Assembly (NCBI GenBank): GCA_035717985.1
Contig: DASTHW010000013.1
Location: 7,656 to 71,655, forward strand
Direction: 5' to 3'
Length of the DNA: 64,000 bases
DNA from: Candidatus Saccharimonadales bacterium
GTDB lineage: Bacteria > Patescibacteriota > Saccharimonadia > Saccharimonadales > UBA10212
Below the pieces are notes generated by a model that ran no database searches, was not told the origin of the DNA, and worked only from the letters and a program-made list of their open reading frames with translations. This document shows, one piece after another, positions 9,150-57,783 of the stretch. Positions within the stretch are counted from its first letter, which is position 1. Each line of letters begins with the position of its first letter. Made by a program: the position numbers and the translations under genes.

Positions 9150-10736
9150 TTACTTCTTGCCTTTATCGTCTTTTTTATCAGATTTATCCGGCTCGTCACT
9201 GTTCTTTTGTGGCGGCGGGATAACAACGCCTCCGCCCAAATTCATTGGCGGCGGAAACGGCGGCGGGGCCGGCATATCAGGATTGCCAAAGGCCCGCTCA
9301 ACGGCACCTCTGGCATCGTCCTCCGGCGGCTTAACCTCTTTGGAGTGCGTTAAAAAGCCCTCGTCCCGGGAGTGGTTTTCGGCCAGTGGGTCGCTGTCAG
9401 CTTCAGGTGAATCGTTATCTAAAGCGGCCGTAAAGCTATTCCTTGTGCCGCCGGCGTCTAGAAAAGAATGCGGGCCCGGCGGTTCTTCTGTCGGGCCTTC
9501 TTCCGTACCTTCTTCTTCTTGAGTGTTAGTTTTGTCTTCGGCTTCCCTCTCTTGAGCCAGTTCAGCCGGCGGTTCTTCGGGCGTAGGTTTAGACTCGGGC
9601 TCTGGCTTTTCAGGCCTGGGAGCAGGCTCTTCGGATCCGGGAGGCGGTTCTTCGTGGCTTTGCTCAGGCTTAAGCTCCAATTGATCCTCTTTGGGCGGCT
9701 GAGGCAAACTAAGCTGATTGGCGGCGGCTTTAGCCTTCATTAGAGTTCCCTCGGTATCAATCCTTATTTCAGAGGTGTCAACATCTACCTCTTGGCCGTC
9801 TTGGCCGCCGGCGCCGTGATTGACGTTAAGTGTGCCGTCGTTTTTAACTTCCGGTTTTTGATCAAATTTCTCCGGCGGGGCCGTAGGAGCGGCCGGAGGG
9901 GGTGGCGCCGCTGGCCTTGGCGCCGGCGGCTCTAGTTTGCTGACGATTAACTGCTGGTTAGCGCCGGCCGCCATCAGTTGGGCCGACATAGTCATAACCT
10001 TTGGCGAGGTTTTTAGGTTGCTGAAGCGTTTAGTCTCGGCCACAATGCCGGTTAGAAAGGCAGTAGCCATTTGGCTATCCAGCAAACTGGAGCCAAAAGC
10101 CTCACTAATACTGACAATCATCTCTGATAAACTGCTGGCCGTAGGTTCTTTCCAGTTAATTTGGCCCAGCTCCACTGCCTTACCTTCCCCGGCGTTAACC
10201 GATATCACAGCGGCGTCGTGCAAAATTTTGCCGTGGGCTAGAATCGCGGCGTCCAGCTGGCTTTGGCTGATAACACCTAGAGCCAGTACTACGTCGACAT
10301 TAAAATCACCTTGGCTGAACTGCAGATCCTTCTCGCCAATGCTGGTTTTATAAGGAGTTATATAGATTTTTACAAACTGATCTTCAATCTTGTAGCGCAG
10401 TTTGTCGGCCTTGGCCTTATCCAGCGAGATTATAAAATCCTGCAAACTGTCAGTATTGGCTTCGAGAGTTTTTTCGGGTTGCAAAAATTCAATCGTTGAA
10501 GGCACCTTGCCGGAAAAAACAGCTGTAGCGTGTTTGCCCAGCTTATTGAGCAGTAAAGTAGTGCCGATACAGGCCGCCAGCTGGTCGACCGACGGGTCTT
10601 TACTGACCGTCACTAAAATATCGGCGGCTTGTTTTAGCCTTTCTACGACCTGTTGCTTAGCCTGGGCTTCCATTTTTGTTTTATTTGGTTTTAGTTTTAG
10701 GCTTCTTATTTGACAGATTAGCACTACTGTTGACAA
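9150..10736 (-). CDS. DHH/NrnA-like phosphoesterase-fold protein with degenerate catalytic motifs and a long Pro/Glu-rich disordered C-terminal tail
   Basis: The N-terminal ~270 aa align in pattern to NrnA-type DHH-DHHA1 proteins, but motif I reads SKDPSVDQLAA and motif III has no DHH (FNVDVVLALG). The C-terminal ~250 aa are low complexity (PAPRPAAPPPPAAPTAPPEK...PPPFPPPMNLGGG...KKDDKGKK). The true start is probably the internal MEAQAKQ. Confidence 0.6.
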   Translation of the reverse strand: MSTVVLICQIRSLKLKPNKTKMEAQAKQQVVERLKQAADILVTVSKDPSVDQLAACIGTTLLLNKLGKHATAVFSGKVPSTIEFLQPEKTLEANTDSLQDFIISLDKAKADKLRYKIEDQFVKIYITPYKTSIGEKDLQFSQGDFNVDVVLALGVISQSQLDAAILAHGKILHDAAVISVNAGEGKAVELGQINWKEPTASSLSEMIVSISEAFGSSLLDSQMATAFLTGIVAETKRFSNLKTSPKVMTMSAQLMAAGANQQLIVSKLEPPAPRPAAPPPPAAPTAPPEKFDQKPEVKNDGTLNVNHGAGGQDGQEVDVDTSEIRIDTEGTLMKAKAAANQLSLPQPPKEDQLELKPEQSHEEPPPGSEEPAPRPEKPEPESKPTPEEPPAELAQEREAEDKTNTQEEEGTEEGPTEEPPGPHSFLDAGGTRNSFTAALDNDSPEADSDPLAENHSRDEGFLTHSKEVKPPEDDARGAVERAFGNPDMPAPPPFPPPMNLGGGVVIPPPQKNSDEPDKSDKKDDKGKK

Positions 10737-10832: not shown

Positions 10833-11195
10833 ATGCCGATAATCAAATCCGCTCGTAAGCGTGTAAAGACAGCCGCCAAGGCTAACCAGCGAAATTATAA
10901 AACTAAGCGCTCTATGCGTGAGGCCGTTAAGGCTTTCACTAAGGCCTTAAGCGGCGGCAATGCAAAGACAATTGGCGAGGCTGAACGAGCCGCCGTTAGC
11001 GCCATTGACCTGGCCGCCAAAAAAGCTGTTATCCATAAAAATAAAGCCGCGCGGGAAAAAGCTCGCTTGTCGGCACGGGCCAAAGCCGCCGGTGCTAAAC
11101 CCCTAAAACAAACCGCCAAGCCAGCGGCTAAGAAACCGGTAGCCAAGAAGTCTAGTGCCAAAAAGCCAGCCGCCAAAAAACCGGCTAAAAAATAA
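10833..11195 (+). CDS. rpsT: 30S ribosomal protein S20 with a Lys/Ala-rich C-terminal extension
   Basis: MPIIKSARKRVKTAAKANQRNYKTKRSMREAVKAF. The C-terminal ~40 aa form an AKPAAKKPVAKKSSAKKPAAKKPAKK histone-H1-like tail. Confidence 0.9.
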   Translation: MPIIKSARKRVKTAAKANQRNYKTKRSMREAVKAFTKALSGGNAKTIGEAERAAVSAIDLAAKKAVIHKNKAAREKARLSARAKAAGAKPLKQTAKPAAKKPVAKKSSAKKPAAKKPAKK

Positions 11196-11341
11196 TCTTT
11201 TGCTAGCTTAATAAATTGCAATTTAGATAGTTTTATGTTATAGTTATTCAGCTCCGGTTGAAGGTGTTTTTGTCGGTTTTAACCTGCAAAATCTCTACTT
11301 CCCGGAGAGACGCCCGTAGCCACCTATTGAAGGGGTAACCC

Positions 11342-11638
11342 GTGCATCAAACCTGCCTTCACGGCGAAGAACCCTGCTGGGGCCACGCTGAGCCTGAGTG
11401 GGGAGCGGTTCCTGTTCCTGGGGCCGCCGGCCGCCTGAGCCGCCTAACCAAGCGGGCATTCGTGCCCCTGGTTCTGGCTCTCACAGCGGCCTACTGCGTG
11501 CACAAGACGCTGGCGGCCACGCCGGGTGTCAGTGCCGAGCGCTGGGACAACCTGCTCTGGCTGAACCTGGTGATCCTCACCTTCTCGGTGATCCTGAGGA
11601 TTCCCAAGCCGGCAAGAAGCCGCCGGAGACGGCTATAG
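11342..11638 (+). CDS. small high-GC ORF (98 aa), predicted two-TM membrane protein with basic C-terminus; foreign codon usage
   Basis: GTG start 6 nt after GAAGGGG. The second half has ~90% G/C at third codon positions (ctg, gtg, atc, ctc, acc, ttc, aac, gac), hydrophobic segments FVPLVLALTAAYCV and LLWLNLVILTFSVIL, and ends RSRRRRL. Confidence 0.45.
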   Translation: MHQTCLHGEEPCWGHAEPEWGAVPVPGAAGRLSRLTKRAFVPLVLALTAAYCVHKTLAATPGVSAERWDNLLWLNLVILTFSVILRIPKPARSRRRRL

Positions 11639-11642
11639 CTGG

Positions 11643-11694
11643 ATCCCTGGGTTCCGTCGCTCTCGACAGAGAGCGGCGGGACCCTGTTTTATTT
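11643..11694. terminator. strong intrinsic (bidirectional) terminator between cassette-1 ORF and holA
   Basis: Stem CCGTCGCTCTC (11654-11664), loop GACA, stem GAGAGCGGCGG (11669-11679), followed by GACCCTGTTTTATTT. An extended outer stem pairs GGGTTCC with GGGACCC. Confidence 0.65.
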
Positions 11695-12642
11695 AAGACC
11701 GACAATTAAGTTTTTTAAGGCTTCGTCCAAGTCGACAGCGTAAACCTTAGATTTATAGTCTGCTTCGGCGGCCAAACCTATGATTTGTTTTAGCTTAGCG
11801 GCCTCTAGCTTGCCGGCTAGGCTTTTAGCTTTATTTAAGGGGTAAGGGTTAAGTTTTGCCTCGCTGGCAATTTGGCCGGCCGGCCGGCCTCCGGCTGACT
11901 TTGCTATAGCAATAAGCTGTAACTGCCAGACAATAAGGGCCAAGATGGCCTGCGGCTCTACCTTTTGGGCTCTTTGCTCTTCGTAGAGGGTTAGCGCCTT
12001 TTTTTGGTTACCGCTGAACATGGCATCTAATAGATCAAATATTCTGCTTTGCGGTCTTTTCTCTGTTAGTAAATCAATGGATTCTTTAGTGATAGTTCTG
12101 TTATGAAGAACCAGTTTCTCCAGTTCGCTGATAAGCAGTGTCTGGCTGACACCCACTCTATCGACTAAATATCTGGCGGTGCCTAGATCCAGTTTGGCGC
12201 CAAGGCTTTCTGCCTCGGCGGTCAGCCATTTAGGTAGAAGCTCCTGCGGCAATTCGTTAAATTCTTCGAGTCTAGTTTTACTTTTCAGCACCTTGAAATA
12301 AGCCGTACGTTTATCAGGACTAGACTCTAATATTATTAAATCTACCTCTGTTGGAATTGAACTAATTATTTGTTCAATTTTATCTGTGGCCCAACTGTTA
12401 GTGCCGAGCCCGCGCAGTATAACCAGCTTGGCGCTGGTCAGAAAAGGTAGGTTAGAAATTGACGATAAAATGATGTCCGGCTCGGCACCCTCGGCGTCAA
12501 TCCGCTCGATACTCAACTCTCCATGCTGGGCGGTAAACCTTTCGACCAGCTCGTCTAGGCGGCGTTTTAAGTTAGTGTTGTTAGGGCCCGTTAAGCTGAT
12601 TATCATTTCGGACTCCTGGGTAGTTTCTGGCAGTGGGGACAA
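11689..12642 (-). CDS. holA: DNA polymerase III delta subunit (HolA)
   Basis: A delta-subunit-like N-terminal AAA-like domain and C-terminal helical domain. The likely true start is the internal Met at 12606 (MIISLTGPNN...), which forms an ATGA start/stop overlap with fpg. Confidence 0.75.
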   Translation of the reverse strand: MSPLPETTQESEMIISLTGPNNTNLKRRLDELVERFTAQHGELSIERIDAEGAEPDIILSSISNLPFLTSAKLVILRGLGTNSWATDKIEQIISSIPTEVDLIILESSPDKRTAYFKVLKSKTRLEEFNELPQELLPKWLTAEAESLGAKLDLGTARYLVDRVGVSQTLLISELEKLVLHNRTITKESIDLLTEKRPQSRIFDLLDAMFSGNQKKALTLYEEQRAQKVEPQAILALIVWQLQLIAIAKSAGGRPAGQIASEAKLNPYPLNKAKSLAGKLEAAKLKQIIGLAAEADYKSKVYAVDLDEALKNLIVGLK

Positions 12643-49473: not shown

Positions 49474-49504
49474 GCCCTTTAACCCGTACTTGCTTTTCCA
49501 CAGG

Positions 49505-49520
49505 AATATTGGACAATATT
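49505..49520. promoter_or_regulatory. palindrome AATATTG-ga-CAATATT upstream of the cassette-2 promoter
   Basis: Read directly from the sequence. Confidence 0.3.
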
Positions 49521-49547
49521 GCTTTCATAACCGTTCGGGTTTATACT
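49519..49547 (+). promoter_or_regulatory. sigma70-type promoter TTGCTT-17-TATACT driving the high-GC ORF at 49605
   Basis: It lies in host-like AT-rich DNA just upstream of the GC-rich cassette. The ~50-nt leader contains the palindrome CCGTCCA-atc-TGGACGG (49574-49590) and the RBS GGAGAGGGGAG. Confidence 0.5.
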
Positions 49548-49604
49548 CACTTTTAGTCCTATTCACATCTACACCGTCCAATCTGGACGGAGAGGGGAGT
49601 ACCC

Positions 49605-50048
49605 GTGCGAAAGGGCACCTTGGTCCATGGGGACCTGATGGTGGCGATCGTCCGTAGGGGACGGGGCTGGCGCGTCCGCGTCACCCGCCCCCGCGGCCAC
49701 AAGGATCTGCCGCCGCGCGTGCTGGGGCTCATGCTCCTGCATTTCGAGCACTCAGAGCTGTGCCCGAAGGGGCAGGAGTACCGGCCCGGCAGAACGCTGG
49801 ACGAGACGGGGAGGCGCTTCATCCTCGTCGACGGTCCCCTGGACGATTCGTTCTGCACCGATGAGTGCCAGCGGAGCCTGGCCTCGTCGCACGCGAGCGA
49901 CATCGTCGGAAGGTGCTTCGAAGTGGCCGCCAGCGAGGAGGCCATCACGGACAAGGTCGACGCCGGTGCGGGCGAGCCCGAGCCGGCCAAGCACTCCAGG
50001 CGCCAGCGCCTGCCGGCACGTGTCTACGCTCCCGCTCGCGCGGCCTGA
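49605..50048 (+). CDS. high-GC ORF (147 aa), hypothetical; actinobacterial-style codon usage
   Basis: GTG start 6 nt after GGAGAGGGGAG. G/C at codon position 3 is very high throughout (ctg, gtc, cgc, gac, ttc, atc...). The product is Arg-rich, MRKGTLVHGDLMVAIVRRGRGWRVRVTRPRGHKDLPPRVLGLMLLHFEHSELCPKG... Confidence 0.55.
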   Translation: MRKGTLVHGDLMVAIVRRGRGWRVRVTRPRGHKDLPPRVLGLMLLHFEHSELCPKGQEYRPGRTLDETGRRFILVDGPLDDSFCTDECQRSLASSHASDIVGRCFEVAASEEAITDKVDAGAGEPEPAKHSRRQRLPARVYAPARAA

Positions 50049-50120
50049 CCAGCAAACACCGGTCAGGCGCCCGCGCCGAACAAATTCTCTGAAAGGAGGT
50101 GTGGCCTAGGCCAGATGGGC

Positions 50121-50226
50121 GGCGAAGGCGCGGTAAGCAAACTCCGCGCCTTCGCCCCCGGCCCTTAGCCGGATAGGGCTAACCAGCCGCGTTTTCTGCT
50201 TATTTCTCACGGGCAGAAACCGCGGC
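50121..50226. terminator. cluster of GC-rich hairpins downstream of the cassette-2 ORF (bidirectional terminator-like)
   Basis: GGCGAAGGCGCGG-taagcaaact-CCGCGCCTTCGCC (50121-50156, perfect 13-bp stem) and GCCGCGTTTTCTGC-(13 nt)-GCAGAAACCGCGGC (50186-50226), followed by TTTAGTCGTTTAAT. Confidence 0.55.
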
Positions 50227-50308
50227 TTTAGTCGTTTAATAAACTTAGCTATGTATCTTTACCGGCTAAGCGCTTTTGGTTCAGTCTAATCTGAGATCCA
50301 GTTTTCTT

Positions 50309-51607
50309 TTATTCAGTGAGCAGTTCGCGGGCGATTTGCCTCTCGTCCCACGGCTCATCTACCCCGCCCATATTGCGGGTGGTCTGGTGGCCGATGCCAG
50401 CCAGCAGTACGGCGTCACCGCGCCGGGCCGAGTTAAAGGCTGTAATAATTGCCTCCCGGCGGTCGCCGATAATTTTGGTTCTGCCTTCCCCGCCGGCTTT
50501 TTTAATACCGGCATAGACTGACTGGCGGATGGCCTCGGGGTCCTCAGTGTACGTCTCATCATCAGTTAGAAAAATAAGATCGGCATTTTTGGCCGCCGCC
50601 TCGCCCATTATCGGCCGCTTAGTCTTATCGCGGTCGCCAGTAGCTCCAAACACCACCAGTACTCTTCCCACCGCCGACTTGCCGATTTCCTGCAGGGTCC
50701 GCTCTAGGGCCTCCGGTGTTACAGCATAATCAACTATCACTTCAAAGGGCTGGCCAGCTGAGATCTTTTCCATCCGGCCCGGCACCGCCTCTAGCGCCCC
50801 CACCCCTTTCTCGATCTGTTGGCGAGTTAGCCCTAAGACCTGCCCTACGCCCACGGCCGCTAAGGTGTTATAAACGTTAAAATGGCCCACTAGCTTACTT
50901 TTTATGTGAAAGGCTTGGCCGTTAAGTTCGGCCCGGTAAGAGATACCAGTCGGCTGGCTGACTACGCCCTTAGCCCTTAGTTCGCCGTGATTGATGCCGT
51001 ATAAAACTGAATGCTTGATAACTTTAGCAAACAGGTTGACGCTGTCGTCATCGGCGTTAATGACCCCTGTCCGCAGGCCGCTGTGGTGGCGATTGGTCAT
51101 TTTAAATAAACAGCGTTTAGCCTCACGGTAGCGCTTAAAGGTACCGTGATAATCCAGGTGTTCATGACTAATATTAGTTAAAACGGCTATCGAATACGGC
51201 AGGCTCCAAACCCGGTGCTGAGCCAGAGCGTGGCTGGAAGTCTCTAGCACCAGCCAGTCGATTTTTTGACGCTTCATTTCCTTAATTCGTCTTAGCAAAA
51301 TCGGCACTGGTACAGTGGTCATATGCTCTTTTTGAGGTTTAATATCAAGTCCCACGCCCCAACCGACAGTTGTCATAACGCCGACGTTATAGCCGGCCTC
51401 AAGTAACATCCGATGAATTAAAAAGCAGGTTGTTGTCTTACCGTCGGTACCAGTTACGCCGATAACATTCATCCCCCGGGCCGGAAAACCGTGAACGACA
51501 TTTAAAATAATCGCCTCGGCCCAGTGGCCGTAAGGCTCTACCAGTCTAAATAAGCGTCTAGGAATTAGCTTTTTGACTAATTTTCTGGGATTCATATCTA
51601 GATTCAT
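50309..51607 (-). CDS. MurE-like Mur ligase (UDP-N-acetylmuramoyl-tripeptide ligase family) with short N-terminal region
   Basis: P-loop GVTGTDGKTTT. The C-terminal domain DYAVTPEALERTLQ...VFGATGDRDKTKRP...FLTDDETYTEDPEAI...GDRREAI...LLAGIGHQ matches the MurE C-terminal pattern. Only ~50 aa precede the P-loop. Confidence 0.75.
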   Translation of the reverse strand: MNLDMNPRKLVKKLIPRRLFRLVEPYGHWAEAIILNVVHGFPARGMNVIGVTGTDGKTTTCFLIHRMLLEAGYNVGVMTTVGWGVGLDIKPQKEHMTTVPVPILLRRIKEMKRQKIDWLVLETSSHALAQHRVWSLPYSIAVLTNISHEHLDYHGTFKRYREAKRCLFKMTNRHHSGLRTGVINADDDSVNLFAKVIKHSVLYGINHGELRAKGVVSQPTGISYRAELNGQAFHIKSKLVGHFNVYNTLAAVGVGQVLGLTRQQIEKGVGALEAVPGRMEKISAGQPFEVIVDYAVTPEALERTLQEIGKSAVGRVLVVFGATGDRDKTKRPIMGEAAAKNADLIFLTDDETYTEDPEAIRQSVYAGIKKAGGEGRTKIIGDRREAIITAFNSARRGDAVLLAGIGHQTTRNMGGVDEPWDERQIARELLTE

Positions 51608-56949: not shown

Positions 56950-57000
56950 AAATAAATGATATCAGATTAGTGTTTGTTGATTTAATAAAGTTTTTATTGT

Positions 57001-57013
57001 ATAGTATACATGT
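57001..57013. promoter_or_regulatory. palindrome TGTATA-g-TATACA in the divergent promoter region between the HIT operon and cassette 3
   Basis: Read directly from the sequence, adjacent to a TTGACA hexamer at 57017-57022. Confidence 0.3.
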
Positions 57014-57044
57014 ACGTTGACAGCTGGCGAGCCACGTATTCCTT

Positions 57045-57111
57045 GGACCCGAATCCCGCTTGAAAAAAGCGGAACAGTGGACCCGAATCCCGCTTGAAAA
57101 AAGCGGAACAG
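57045..57111 (+). repeat. two tandem copies of a 33-bp unit GGACCCGAATCCCGCTTGAAAAAAGCGGAACAG (34-bp period), each with an internal hairpin CCGCTT-GAAAA-AAGCGG
   Basis: Copy 1 is at 57045-57077 and copy 2 at 57079-57111, with identical sequence. Copy 2 runs directly into the RBS AAAGGAA and the ATG at 57123. Confidence 0.85.
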
Positions 57112-57122
57112 AAAGGAATGAC

Positions 57123-57533
57123 ATGGCAATTTTCTACAGATGCACCAACAACGGTACGACCGCAGTCGTTCCGGAGAACGTGTACGAGCAGATCCAGGCC
57201 CAACACGACTGGTGGATGAGGGTGCAGAGGGAGACTGGCGGCCGCGAGCCGATCGAGTCGCCGGAGTACCCCAAGCCCATCTTCACCTTCGTGCGGAGGG
57301 AGCACCTCGGTCCGGACCTCCACCTCAGGAACTACGTGACCGCCAGCCTCGAGCTGATGGACACGCTCCTGCAGGGGCATGTGGTCTTCAGCGGGGAGTT
57401 CTACGTGCCGTTCAGCAATAGTATCGAGCTGAACGACCACGACCCGCGTGCTGAAGGCGAGAGGACCTTCCGGACGACACTCGAGCAGGCCATCAAGGCC
57501 TTCGAGCTCGTCCGGGCAGGCACTACGCAGTAA
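57123..57533 (+). CDS. high-GC ORF (136 aa), hypothetical; actinobacterial-style codon usage
   Basis: ATG after AAAGGAATGAC. Third-position G/C is near-universal (acc, gtc, gag, atc, ttc, ctc, gac...). Product MAIFYRCTNNGTTAVVPENVYEQIQAQHDWWMRVQRETGGREPIESPEYPKPIFTFVRREHLGPD... The ORF-track entry 57060..57533 begins at a TTG inside the AT-rich repeat and is not favoured. Confidence 0.55.
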   Translation: MAIFYRCTNNGTTAVVPENVYEQIQAQHDWWMRVQRETGGREPIESPEYPKPIFTFVRREHLGPDLHLRNYVTASLELMDTLLQGHVVFSGEFYVPFSNSIELNDHDPRAEGERTFRTTLEQAIKAFELVRAGTTQ

Positions 57534-57574
57534 GAGCAGGCGGGTTCGCCGCTCATCGTACAGCCGGGATCGGT

Positions 57575-57615
57575 GCGGGCGCGCTCTCAGCGCGCCCGCA
57601 TCCCCGGACTTTCTA
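57575..57615 (+). terminator. GC-rich hairpin terminator after the cassette-3 ORF
   Basis: GCGGGCGCGC-TCTCA-GCGCGCCCGC, a perfect 10-bp stem, followed by ATCCCCGGACTTTCTATTTGT. Confidence 0.55.
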
Positions 57616-57691
57616 TTTGTAAGACGCAGGAACCCCGATAAGACTTCTTAAATCGCTAAACACTAGGCTATAATTACCTCTGTTCTTACGC

Positions 57692-57783
<92 letters not shown>

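What the first reader, a model, noticed from the sequence alone, without database searches (positions are those of the whole stretch)
11300..11700. Cassette 1: high-GC two-TM mini-protein gene with a textbook bidirectional terminator between rpsT and holA
Composition switches within ~30 bp upstream of a GTG preceded by GAAGGGG. The second half of the ORF has actinobacterial-style codons and encodes two hydrophobic helices and an RSRRRRL tail. An 11-bp stem/GACA loop hairpin followed by TGTTTTATTT (11654-11694) terminates it and overlaps the convergent holA stop codon. The insert sits in a conserved housekeeping spacer (rpsT / holA), making a recent insertion plausible.
Basis: partly seen in the sequence, partly recalled or inferred. 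Interest (0 to 1): 0.6.

Follow-up and report, generated by a model that had tools for sequence, protein, structure and literature searches.

The report
GC-locked small membrane-protein gene beside holA
The GC-rich stretch between rpsT and holA is a real, separately transcribed gene for a 98-residue two-helix membrane protein found only in some Saccharibacteria; it is an old resident rather than a recent insert, and selection appears to keep its silent codon positions G/C-rich for a reason not yet known.

Summary
A ~400-bp island of 60-71% GC (window mean 50%) holds a GTG-initiated 98-aa ORF (11342-11638, +) with a GAAGGGG Shine-Dalgarno, two hydrophobic helices, an Arg-rich tail and a strong hairpin/U-tract terminator whose U-tract overlaps the holA stop.

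The ORF is a genuine protein gene: only its own frame shows pN/pS below 1, and both its N-terminal motif and its membrane core are conserved. It belongs to a tiny uncharacterised family, about a dozen clusters among billions of proteins. All members come from Saccharimonadales and all sit convergent with holA.

It is not a recent insertion. Carriers share as little as 50% holA identity, no homologue exists outside the clade, and no mobile-element hallmarks flank it.

The high GC is a maintained property. GC3 is 0.72-0.97 in 13/13 loci (neighbours 0.45-0.69), even where the protein is I/K/F-rich. Synonymous divergence is 2-3.5x lower than in both neighbouring genes.

Each CDS folds better than codon-permuted versions of itself, but no common fold is conserved.

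The terminator is not canonically bidirectional. Biochemical function is unknown. I infer a cytoplasm-anchored membrane hairpin made from a stable, highly folded mRNA.

The parts
10833..11195 (+). rpsT (ribosomal protein S20), upstream neighbour; context only
   Evidence: Pfam PF01649 E=4.8e-19. GC3 0.50.
11216..11244 (+). Sigma-70-like promoter: TTGCAA, 17-nt spacer, TG-n-TATAGT (extended -10). Predicted transcription start near 11251.
   Evidence: Promoter scan, 9/12 matches with TG. Orthologous loci have a stronger version at the same place, ATTGTATTT...TGTGTTATAAT. Function is inferred, not shown.
11252..11307 (+). 5'-proximal leader stem-loop: outer helix CUCCGG 11252-11257 with CCGGAG 11302-11307, enclosing an AU-rich inner hairpin
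   Evidence: MFE and centroid folds of the leader. The architecture is analogous to the P1/P2 leader of the orthologues, but the leader covariance model R1 does not recognise it.
11329..11335 (+). Shine-Dalgarno-like GAAGGGG, 6 nt before the start codon
   Evidence: Read from the sequence. L001 and the window unit at 49.6 kb have the same style of site, GAAAGGGG / GAGAGGGGAG followed by GTG.
11342..11638 (+). CDS, GTG start, 98 aa: N-terminal cytoplasmic motif (residues ~2-27), TM1 (~38-54), short outside loop with PGVSAERW, TM2 (~70-88), IPK plus RSRRRRL tail
   Evidence: ORF list. Homology to L010/P0001: pairwise E=8e-14. Family profile hits. Alignments A2/A3. Only this frame shows pN/pS below 1. 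Hydropathy and charge. AlphaFold helices 29-58 and 65-86 at low confidence.
11649..11694 (+). Intrinsic terminator: 16-pair GC-rich stem, GACA loop, TGTTTTATTT tail. The tail overlaps the holA stop at 11689-11691.
   Evidence: Terminator scan and inverted repeat I2. Orthologues have a hairpin at the same place whose stem differs in sequence while remaining self-complementary. The U-tract is on the + strand only.
11689..12642 (-). holA (DNA polymerase III delta), convergent neighbour; context only
   Evidence: Pfam PF21694 and PF06144. GC3 0.48.

Best explanation
SHOWN:
- Positions 11342-11638 (+) are a real protein-coding gene, the most divergent known member of a very small, uncharacterised family restricted to Saccharimonadales (Saccharibacteria/TM7).
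- Every family member lies in the same slot: convergent with the 3' end of holA and, in all but one group of loci, directly after rpsT.
- Each has its own promoter-like site, a leader of about 70-115 nt, mostly GTG or TTG start codons, and a strong hairpin terminator abutting the holA stop.
- The high GC is not an insertion scar. It is a gene-specific excess of G/C at synonymous positions, seen in all 13 loci, and synonymous divergence is 2-3.5x lower than in both flanking genes.

INFERRED:
- The product is an N-in/C-in helical hairpin in the cytoplasmic membrane. It exposes a short conserved loop (PGxSxxRW) outside. A conserved N-terminal peptide and a poly-basic tail stay in the cytoplasm.
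- It most likely acts as a small accessory or regulatory membrane subunit, not as an enzyme.
- The G/C-locked silent sites, the 5' stem-loop and the strong 3' hairpin together give a compact, nuclease-resistant mRNA. A weak start codon would give low-rate translation from it. On this view selection acts on overall mRNA folding or stability, not on one particular fold.
For: Coding status:
- ORF98 against the L010 orthologue: 35% identity over 62 aa, E=8e-14, with no detectable DNA similarity.
- pN/pS is 0.42 in the annotated frame. It is 1.1 or higher in four of the other five frames and 0.62, with a stop codon, in the antisense frame that mirrors the coding frame. Pairwise dN/dS is 0.23-0.78.
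- The N-terminal motif is shared with P0005, P0006, P0008, P0010, P0012 and P0013.

Family size and range:
- 5 clusters among 5.8 billion proteins.
- 9 representatives at E<=1e-3 among 1.84 billion, two of them repetitive false positives.
- No hits in Pfam, NCBI-style domain scans attempted, PDB, PADLOC or viral contigs.

Synteny: identical in all retrieved loci.

GC3:
- 0.72-0.97 in the small ORF against 0.45-0.69 in neighbouring genes.
- L020 has GC1/GC2 of 0.50/0.40 but GC3 of 0.83.
- The window ORF lies about +3.3 SD from the window's gene distribution.

Synonymous constraint:
- pS is 0.15-0.32 in the small ORF against 0.52-0.68 in rpsT and holA, for the same genome pairs.
- No overlapping frame explains this.

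mRNA folding:
- The native CDS is more stable than versions with synonymous codons permuted in 13/13 loci, mean z -2.6.
- holA control segments give mean z -0.53; Mann-Whitney p=5e-5.
- The whole 411-nt unit folds with z=-4.9 on the + strand and -1.9 on the minus strand.

Leader structure in the orthologues: 76% of cells paired against 38-48% in slid controls, and 8 pairs with changes on both sides. Single-sequence folds agree.

Topology: hydropathy and charge distribution; AlphaFold helical hairpin.
Against: - No expression, localisation or functional data exist.
- The folding excess could partly reflect local compositional heterogeneity that codon permutation destroys.
- No specific CDS structure is conserved: SCI 0.002, no better than column shuffles.
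- The SD and start region is not sequestered, so no concrete regulatory switch is identified.
- The window's own leader is not recognised by the covariance model of the orthologous leaders.
- The window copy has the lowest GC3 contrast in its first half.
- Small-ORF divergence does not track holA divergence (rho 0.01). L001 carries an unrelated ORF behind a homologous leader. So recombination or replacement at this slot, possibly with GC-biased gene conversion, remains a live alternative cause of the high GC3.
- The structure model has low confidence (pLDDT 61).
Confidence: 0.6

Rival explanations
1. Recent horizontal insertion of a foreign high-GC cassette (for example from an actinobacterial host) into the rpsT-holA spacer.
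For: - Sharp GC contrast.
- The gene is absent from the 0-87 nt spacers of L002, L004, L005, L007, L011 and L012.
- Two more high-GC3 stand-alone units lie in the same window.
- GTG starts and G/C-ending codons resemble actinobacterial usage (the comparison with Actinobacteria rests on my own knowledge).
Against: - The gene, slot and GC3 excess are shared by at least 12 lineages with holA identity down to 50%.
- Synonymous divergence between those copies and the window copy is near saturation (pS 0.57-0.69), so a neutral scar should have eroded.
- pS is lower than in the neighbours, not equal to them.
- No homologue outside Saccharimonadales among 1.84 billion representatives.
- No hit in phage records or viral contigs.
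- No target-site duplication or convincing terminal repeats.
Confidence: 0.07
2. The slot is a recombination or replacement hot-spot. The cargo ORF is exchanged or rewritten between Saccharimonadales lineages, and GC-biased gene conversion (not selection on the mRNA) drives and maintains the high GC3.
For: - Small-ORF identity is uncoupled from holA identity: rho 0.01, and L146/L020 are 85% against 23%.
- L020 has dN about 1.0 against 0.11 for holA.
- L001 has a homologous promoter, leader and terminator (R1 57 bits) but an orphan, unrelated ORF that is also high in GC3.
- L018, L019 and L152 have the gene split into two ORFs.
- Low dS within the L010 clade could reflect recent exchange.
Against: - Within the L010/L015/L017 clade, dN of the small ORF equals dN of holA, as expected for vertical descent.
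- No repeats or recombinase genes flank the slot.
- The excess of folding over codon-permuted controls is not predicted by biased conversion alone.
Confidence: 0.2
3. A membrane-damaging small protein, type I toxin-like or holin-like, kept silent by a highly structured mRNA and a weak start codon.
For: - Small, hydrophobic, with a poly-Arg tail.
- GTG or TTG starts in 11 of 13 loci.
- Unusually folded mRNA.
- Fast and erratic protein evolution.
Against: - 98 aa with two TM segments and a conserved soluble N-terminal motif is unlike typical type I toxins (own knowledge).
- No minus-strand promoter-like site lies inside the unit, and no antisense frame or conserved RNA was found.
- The SD is not sequestered.
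- Single copy at a fixed housekeeping locus, with no endolysin or phage context.
- No PADLOC hit.
Confidence: 0.1
4. Not a protein gene: a structured non-coding RNA, as GC-rich islands in AT-richer genomes often are, with a fortuitous ORF.
For: A GC island of about 400 nt with its own promoter and terminator, and a + strand folding z-score of -4.9.
Against: - No Rfam family matches, at gathering or permissive thresholds, and no tmRNA.
- Amino-acid conservation without DNA similarity.
- The purifying-selection signature is confined to the ORF frame.
- Gaps fall between codons in the protein alignment.
- No conserved fold: SCI 0.002.
Confidence: 0.03

Closest known systems
Uncharacterised 'hypothetical protein' family of Saccharimonadales MAGs (e.g. 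NCBI locus tag VFJ84_02160 = P0001; clusters P0002-P0006, P0008-P0010, P0012, P0013)
   Same: Homologous by profile and pairwise comparison. Same slot next to holA, same two-TM plus ERW-loop plus IP(K/R) plus basic-tail architecture, same N-terminal motif, same high GC3.
   Different: The window copy is the most divergent member, at 28-39% identity to the other members. The conserved leader motif of the others is not detectable in it. No member has a name, a domain assignment or a known function.
Small two-TM membrane proteins of Gram-positive bacteria, e.g. the actinobacterial cell-division protein CrgA (Pfam PF06781). Recalled from memory, so a lead only.
   Same: Similar size, a basic cytoplasmic N-terminus, a helical hairpin with a short outside loop containing Trp, and a high-GC gene.
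   Different: No sequence similarity: Pfam scans of all family members at E<=10 return only noise and never CrgA. Different phylum and different genomic context.
Type I toxin-antitoxin toxins (Hok, TisB, Fst and similar) and class II holins
   Same: Short hydrophobic proteins with charged tails. Highly structured mRNAs and weak translation signals are typical of type I toxins (own knowledge).
   Different: Two TM segments plus a conserved soluble motif. No antisense RNA, no phage or lysis genes, no sequestered SD, single fixed chromosomal locus.
Compositionally atypical genomic islets acquired by horizontal transfer
   Same: Abrupt GC shift bounded by promoter and terminator, an accessory gene, patchy distribution.
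   Different: The anomaly is confined to synonymous positions, is conserved across deeply diverged orthologues and comes with reduced synonymous divergence. No donor lineage and no mobility signatures were found.

Membership tests
Saccharimonadales holA-adjacent two-TM small-protein family (unnamed; alignment A3) | Significant sequence similarity to family members or the family profile | tested here: met
   BLASTP E=8e-14 against L010/P0001. The window protein seeds profiles that retrieve the family at 1e-12 to 1e-36.
Saccharimonadales holA-adjacent two-TM small-protein family (unnamed; alignment A3) | Fixed genomic slot: same strand as rpsT, convergent with the holA 3' end | tested here: met
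   Window layout. All retrieved loci share it.
Saccharimonadales holA-adjacent two-TM small-protein family (unnamed; alignment A3) | Architecture: N-terminal xQRxxxGE..(C/S)(F/W/Y)G..E..G motif, TM1, (D/E)RW loop, TM2, IP(K/R), basic tail | tested here: met
   Alignment A3: W68 and L71 invariant; R67, I87 and P88 nearly invariant; the window has HQTCLHGEEPCWGHAEPEWG. Hydropathy.
Saccharimonadales holA-adjacent two-TM small-protein family (unnamed; alignment A3) | Gene-specific GC3 excess over neighbouring genes | tested here: met
   Window 0.76 against 0.46-0.52 in its neighbours. Family range 0.72-0.97.
Conserved 5' leader motif of that family (P1 GUCUCUGG/CCAGAGAC, P2 hairpin, CUUCAGUC; model R1) | Match to the covariance model built from 11 orthologous leaders | tested here: not met
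   No hit at 11245-11341, even with filters off and E<=10. Training loci score 47-76 bits and held-out L017 scores 17.5 bits. The window shows only an analogous stem-loop in the MFE fold.
Known RNA families (Rfam 15), including tmRNA, RNase P, 6S and riboswitches | Covariance-model match at or near gathering score | tested here: not met
   Nothing at gathering thresholds in the window. Only noise at E<=10 in 11150-11750 and in six orthologous loci. ARAGORN finds no tmRNA.
Type I toxin-antitoxin | Cis- or nearby-encoded antisense RNA with its own promoter | tested here: inconclusive
   No minus-strand promoter-like site between 11200 and 11700 in a simple consensus scan. No RNA-seq data are available.
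Type I toxin-antitoxin | Translation initiation region occluded in the full-length mRNA | tested here: not met
   P(unpaired) of the SD-to-start region is 0.35-0.54, equal to or above the transcript mean of 0.32-0.37, in 11 loci.
Holin | Phage or lysis-cassette context (adjacent endolysin); presence in viral genomes | tested here: not met
   Neighbours are rpsT, holA, fpg and truB in all loci. No relative in IMG/VR contigs. No DNA match in phage records.
Recently acquired horizontal-transfer islet or mobile cassette | Absent from close relatives at the same site; homologues in a donor lineage; flanking repeats or mobility genes | tested here: not met
   Present at the same site in at least 12 diverged lineages. 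No homologue outside the clade. No flanking direct repeats, and only a 13-nt inverted repeat at a chance-level expectation.
CrgA (PF06781) and other Pfam small two-TM families | Pfam HMM match | tested here: not met
   Zero families at E<=0.01. Only unrelated noise at E<=10 across six members.

The most novel reading that the evidence does not exclude
Some Saccharimonadales carry a class of small accessory genes housed in fixed 'expression slots' made of promoter, structured leader and terminator, placed between housekeeping genes. The cargo ORF in a slot can be rewritten or swapped: L020 shows a burst of change, L001 has an unrelated orphan ORF behind a homologous leader, and L018/L152 have the gene split in two. 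On this reading, selection locks the synonymous sites of these genes at G/C. That would amount to an mRNA-level expression regime distinct from the rest of the genome, or possibly codon usage tuned to the high-GC actinobacterial hosts these epibionts depend on. The window contains three such units (11.3, 49.6 and 57.1 kb).
Probability: 0.12. Interest if true: 0.75.

Novelty: new member of a known kind. Interest (0 to 1): 0.42.

Why it matters
Taken alone, this is one more lineage-specific small membrane protein of unknown function. Its relatives are already deposited as 'hypothetical protein'.

What makes it worth a note is the evolutionary signature. A sharp GC island would normally be read as recent horizontal transfer. 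Here it is an old resident whose silent sites are held G/C-rich: GC3 reaches 0.97 next to genes at 0.45-0.69, and synonymous divergence is 2-3.5x lower than in both neighbours.

This is a caution for composition-based detection of horizontal transfer in CPR genomes. It is also a compact, testable case of selection or biased conversion at synonymous sites in a reduced genome.

Saccharibacteria retain few accessory genes. A small envelope protein conserved in one soil/rhizosphere-type subclade, with a strictly conserved expression context, is a reasonable candidate for an envelope or host-interface function once a cultivable carrier exists.

Tried and rejected
1. Structured-ncRNA hypothesis, my first guess for a 400-nt GC island. 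Rfam at gathering and permissive thresholds and ARAGORN gave nothing. The coding signature then settled the matter.

2. Single-sequence search of the 98-aa product in the 5.8-billion-protein database found nothing. The family appeared only after an orthologue was located by synteny and a two-sequence profile was used.

Only 1 of the returned loci also had CTTCAGT downstream, and that one was spurious.

4. RNAalifold on the MAFFT leader alignment gave no consensus. The structure was supported only when specified by hand and by single-sequence folds, so that support is moderate.

5. SD-sequestration or thermometer idea: rejected.

6. Conserved fold within the CDS: rejected (SCI 0.002).

7. Overlapping gene in another frame as the cause of synonymous constraint: rejected.

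8. Remnant of the family ORF in another frame of the L001, L006 or L002 spacers: none found. The L001 ORF is an orphan.

9. Mobile-element hallmarks: none.

10. Pfam, PADLOC and PDB sequence searches: no informative hit. An NCBIfam scan failed on a coordinate error and was not repeated.

11. The AlphaFold model was too weak (pLDDT 61) to justify a fold search, so none was run.

12. Two literature searches found nothing on high-GC3 small genes in Saccharibacteria.
Full report
**1. What is in the sequence**

The window is a roughly 50% GC genome fragment from a member of the Saccharibacteria. The closest holA relatives are all Saccharimonadales MAGs. Pfam confirms rpsT/S20 at 10833-11195 (+) and holA at 11689-12642 (-).

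Between them, GC climbs from 0.32 to 0.62-0.70 over 11300-11600 and falls again after 11690. The stated features are all present:
- GAAGGGG at 11329-11335.
- GTG at 11342.
- A 98-codon ORF ending at 11638.
- A 16-pair GC-rich hairpin at 11649-11684 with a GACA loop, followed by TGTTTTATTT. This tail contains the holA stop codon.

A sigma-70-like promoter with an extended -10 (TTGCAA, 17 nt, TG-n-TATAGT) lies at 11216-11244. That delimits a unit of about 440 nt.

The terminator has a U-tract on the + strand only. 'Bidirectional' is therefore not supported.

**2. RNA gene or protein gene?**

A 400-nt GC island in a less GC-rich genome is a classic sign of a structured RNA, and the + strand does fold far better than its shuffles (z = -4.9, against -1.9 for the minus strand). 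However, Rfam gave nothing at either the gathering or the permissive threshold, and ARAGORN found no tmRNA.

Synteny settled the question. holA-based retrieval of relatives showed that the rpsT-holA adjacency is conserved. Several genomes have a 0-87 nt spacer (L002, L004, L005, L007, L011, L012). L001 and L010, the two closest relatives, have a GC-rich island of 400-600 nt with the same layout.

The L010 ORF is homologous to ours at the protein level (35% identity over 62 aa, E = 8e-14), although blastn finds no DNA similarity.

A two-sequence profile then retrieved five clusters from 5.8 billion proteins. A six-sequence profile read against 1.84 billion representatives found only nine hits at E <= 1e-3, and two of those are repetitive artefacts.

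All members whose DNA could be fetched lie in the same slot. The usual order is truB, a ~500-aa gene, rpsT, the small ORF, then convergent holA and fpg.

Three further results bear on coding status:
- Among the closest four members, only the annotated frame shows purifying selection (pN/pS 0.42). Four of the other frames are at 1.1 or above. The remaining one, 0.62 with a stop codon, is the antisense frame that mirrors the coding frame.
Compare the window's HQTCLHGEEPCWGHAEPEWG with P0013's HQRIWPGEEQCFGHETDLDG.
- The family has no hit in Pfam, PDB or PADLOC and no relative in viral contigs.

**3. The protein**

Hydropathy gives two hydrophobic segments at about residues 38-54 and 70-88. There is +4 charge just before the first, a neutral 16-residue loop (PGVSAERW; R67, W68 and L71 are nearly or fully invariant), and +6 in the tail after an invariant I-P. 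By the positive-inside rule (established knowledge) this is an N-in/C-in hairpin.

AlphaFold, with a shallow alignment, gives two helices (29-58 and 65-86) and a disordered N-terminus at low confidence (pLDDT 61).

Family variants:
- The L010 clade lacks the N-terminal motif (74 aa).
- In L018, L019 and L152 the motif plus one TM segment forms a separate upstream ORF.

**4. The compositional anomaly is a maintained trait**

- GC3 of the small ORF is 0.72-0.97 in all 13 loci, while neighbouring genes are at 0.45-0.69.
- In L020 the protein is rich in I, K and F (GC1/GC2 = 0.50/0.40), yet GC3 is 0.83. Amino-acid content is therefore not the cause.
- In the window, genes have GC3 of 0.543 +/- 0.066 with an ordinary maximum of 0.63. 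The ORF's 0.76 is about +3.3 SD.
- These orthologues are old. holA identity is 50-86%, and synonymous divergence from the window copy is near saturation (pS 0.57-0.69). A neutral transfer scar should have decayed.
- Where divergence is still measurable (L010/L015/L017), pS of the small ORF is 0.15-0.32. Both rpsT and holA give 0.52-0.68 in the same genome pairs, while pN is about the same in all three genes.
- Fourfold sites are almost entirely C or G (for example A0 C23 G21 T2 in L010).

**5. Is RNA structure the reason?**

- In 13/13 loci the native CDS folds more stably than versions with synonymous codons permuted, which keep both the protein and the codon usage (mean z -2.6).
- Twenty holA control segments give mean z -0.53. 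The difference is significant (Mann-Whitney p = 5e-5), with the caveat that the loci are phylogenetically related.
- On a protein-guided codon alignment there is no shared fold (SCI 0.002, no better than codon-column shuffles).
- The SD and start region is not occluded.

The data therefore favour selection for general compactness or stability, or some other G/C-favouring force. They do not point to a specific RNA structure.

**6. The leader**

Eleven orthologous leaders share four elements:
- a 5'-terminal helix, GUCUCUGG with CCAGAGAC;
- an enclosed hairpin, GUUCGC/GCGAAC, replaced by AGCGCC/GGCGCU in L015;
- a single-stranded CUUCAGUC;
- a GAGGAAAGG Shine-Dalgarno.

The hand-specified structure is 76% paired, against 38-48% in slid controls, and eight pairs change on both sides. 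Independent single-sequence folds recover it. RNAalifold alone does not.

A covariance model built without the window scores 47-76 bits on its training loci and 17.5 bits on held-out L017. It finds nothing in genomes lacking the gene, and it does not detect the window's leader.

The window leader does fold into an analogous 5' stem-loop at 11252-11307. That is a resemblance, not demonstrated membership.

A stem at the extreme 5' end and a strong 3' hairpin are classic mRNA stabilisers (established knowledge). Their role here is inferred.

**7. Evolutionary mode**

Small-ORF divergence is uncoupled from holA divergence (Spearman 0.01):
- L146 and L020 share 85% identity in holA but 23% in the small protein's core. 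The small ORF's dN is about 1.0, against 0.11 for holA.
- In the L010 clade the two genes have equal dN.

L001 keeps a homologous promoter, leader (57 bits) and terminator, but it encodes an orphan 118-aa ORF with GC3 0.83. That ORF has no similarity to the family in any frame.

No repeats or mobility genes flank the slot. Cargo replacement or bursts of change at a conserved expression slot therefore remain possible, and GC-biased gene conversion is a rival cause of the high GC3.

**8. Verdict**

It is wrong on 'recent insertion' and on 'bidirectional terminator'.
- The object is a new, divergent member of an unnamed small-membrane-protein family restricted to Saccharimonadales. Its function is unknown.
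- The unusual aspect is the conserved, constrained G/C-richness of its silent sites. Two other stand-alone small ORFs in the window share this property (49605-50048, GC3 0.88; 57123-57533, GC3 0.82).

Noticed in passing
window 49490-50230 (ORF 49605-50048 +): A second stand-alone high-GC unit, up to 75% GC with GC3 0.88, the highest in the window. It has a TTGCTT-17-TATACT promoter-like site, a leader hairpin CCGTCC/GGACGG, an SD plus start GAGAGGGGAGTACCC-GTG very like that of the unit studied, a 147-aa ORF with no Pfam or PADLOC hit, and GC-rich hairpins downstream. It lies upstream of a convergent mur-ligase-like gene at 50309-51607.
   Followed up: partly
window 56975-57620 (ORF 57123-57533 +): A third stand-alone high-GC3 unit (0.82). 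It has a promoter-like TTGATT...TG-TATAGT, a leader containing an exact 34-nt tandem duplication (57044-57077 and 57078-57111, each with a CCGCTT/AAGCGG hairpin), SD GAAAGGAA, a 136-aa soluble-looking ORF with no Pfam or PADLOC hit, and a strong GC hairpin terminator just before tRNA-Ser at 57692.
   Followed up: partly
L001 4983-5460 (minus strand of the locus; contig DASTHV010000055.1): The rpsT-holA slot has a promoter, leader (R1 57 bits) and terminator homologous to the family's. The ORF, however, is an orphan of 118 aa with GC3 0.83 and no similarity to the family in any frame. This looks like a cargo swap inside a conserved expression slot.
   Followed up: yes
L019 525-934; L018 97-506; L152 about 2300-2689: In these loci the gene is split. 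An upstream ORF of about 58 aa carries the N-terminal CFGxELG(Y/F)GLD motif plus one TM segment and ends at a TAG overlapping an AGGAGG. A 62-74-aa two-TM ORF follows immediately.
   Followed up: partly
L020 3001-3303 compared with L146 2501-2794: These genomes are 82-85% identical in holA but only about 23-25% identical in the small protein (dN about 1.0, dN/dS above 1 on its own dS). This is a lineage-specific burst of change or a xenologous replacement, with GC3 still at 0.83.
   Followed up: partly
window 11270-11282 and 11693-11705: A 13-nt inverted repeat (TTGTCGGTTTTAA / TTAAGACCGACAA, 92% complementary) brackets the ORF and terminator. The right arm lies inside the last codons of holA. 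My rough estimate is about 0.1 such repeats expected by chance in this region, so it is probably fortuitous.
   Followed up: partly
window 11270-11338: A possible 22-codon upstream ORF (TTG 11270 to TAA 11336-11338), preceded by a second copy of TTGAAGG(T/G)GT. It ends 3 nt before the main GTG, inside the SD region. No equivalent stood out when I read the orthologous leaders, and it was not tested.
   Followed up: no
L006 4916-5572 (contig JBDSPW010000007.1): This relative has a 657-nt rpsT-holA spacer of ordinary GC. It has no long ORF, no match to the family profile and no match to the leader model. Something else may occupy the slot there.
   Followed up: partly
window 9150-10736 (-) and its counterparts in L014, L146, L150, L152: The conserved ~500-aa gene upstream of rpsT has no Pfam hit. 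In the window it has a long Pro/Glu/Ala-rich low-complexity C-terminal half that creates local GC peaks at 9200-10000.
   Followed up: no
L023 63-1682: In the P0012 loci, the gene upstream of the small ORF is a 539-aa ORF with 69% GC at all three codon positions instead of rpsT. That flat pattern is atypical for coding sequence, so it may be low-complexity sequence or a mis-called gene.
   Followed up: no
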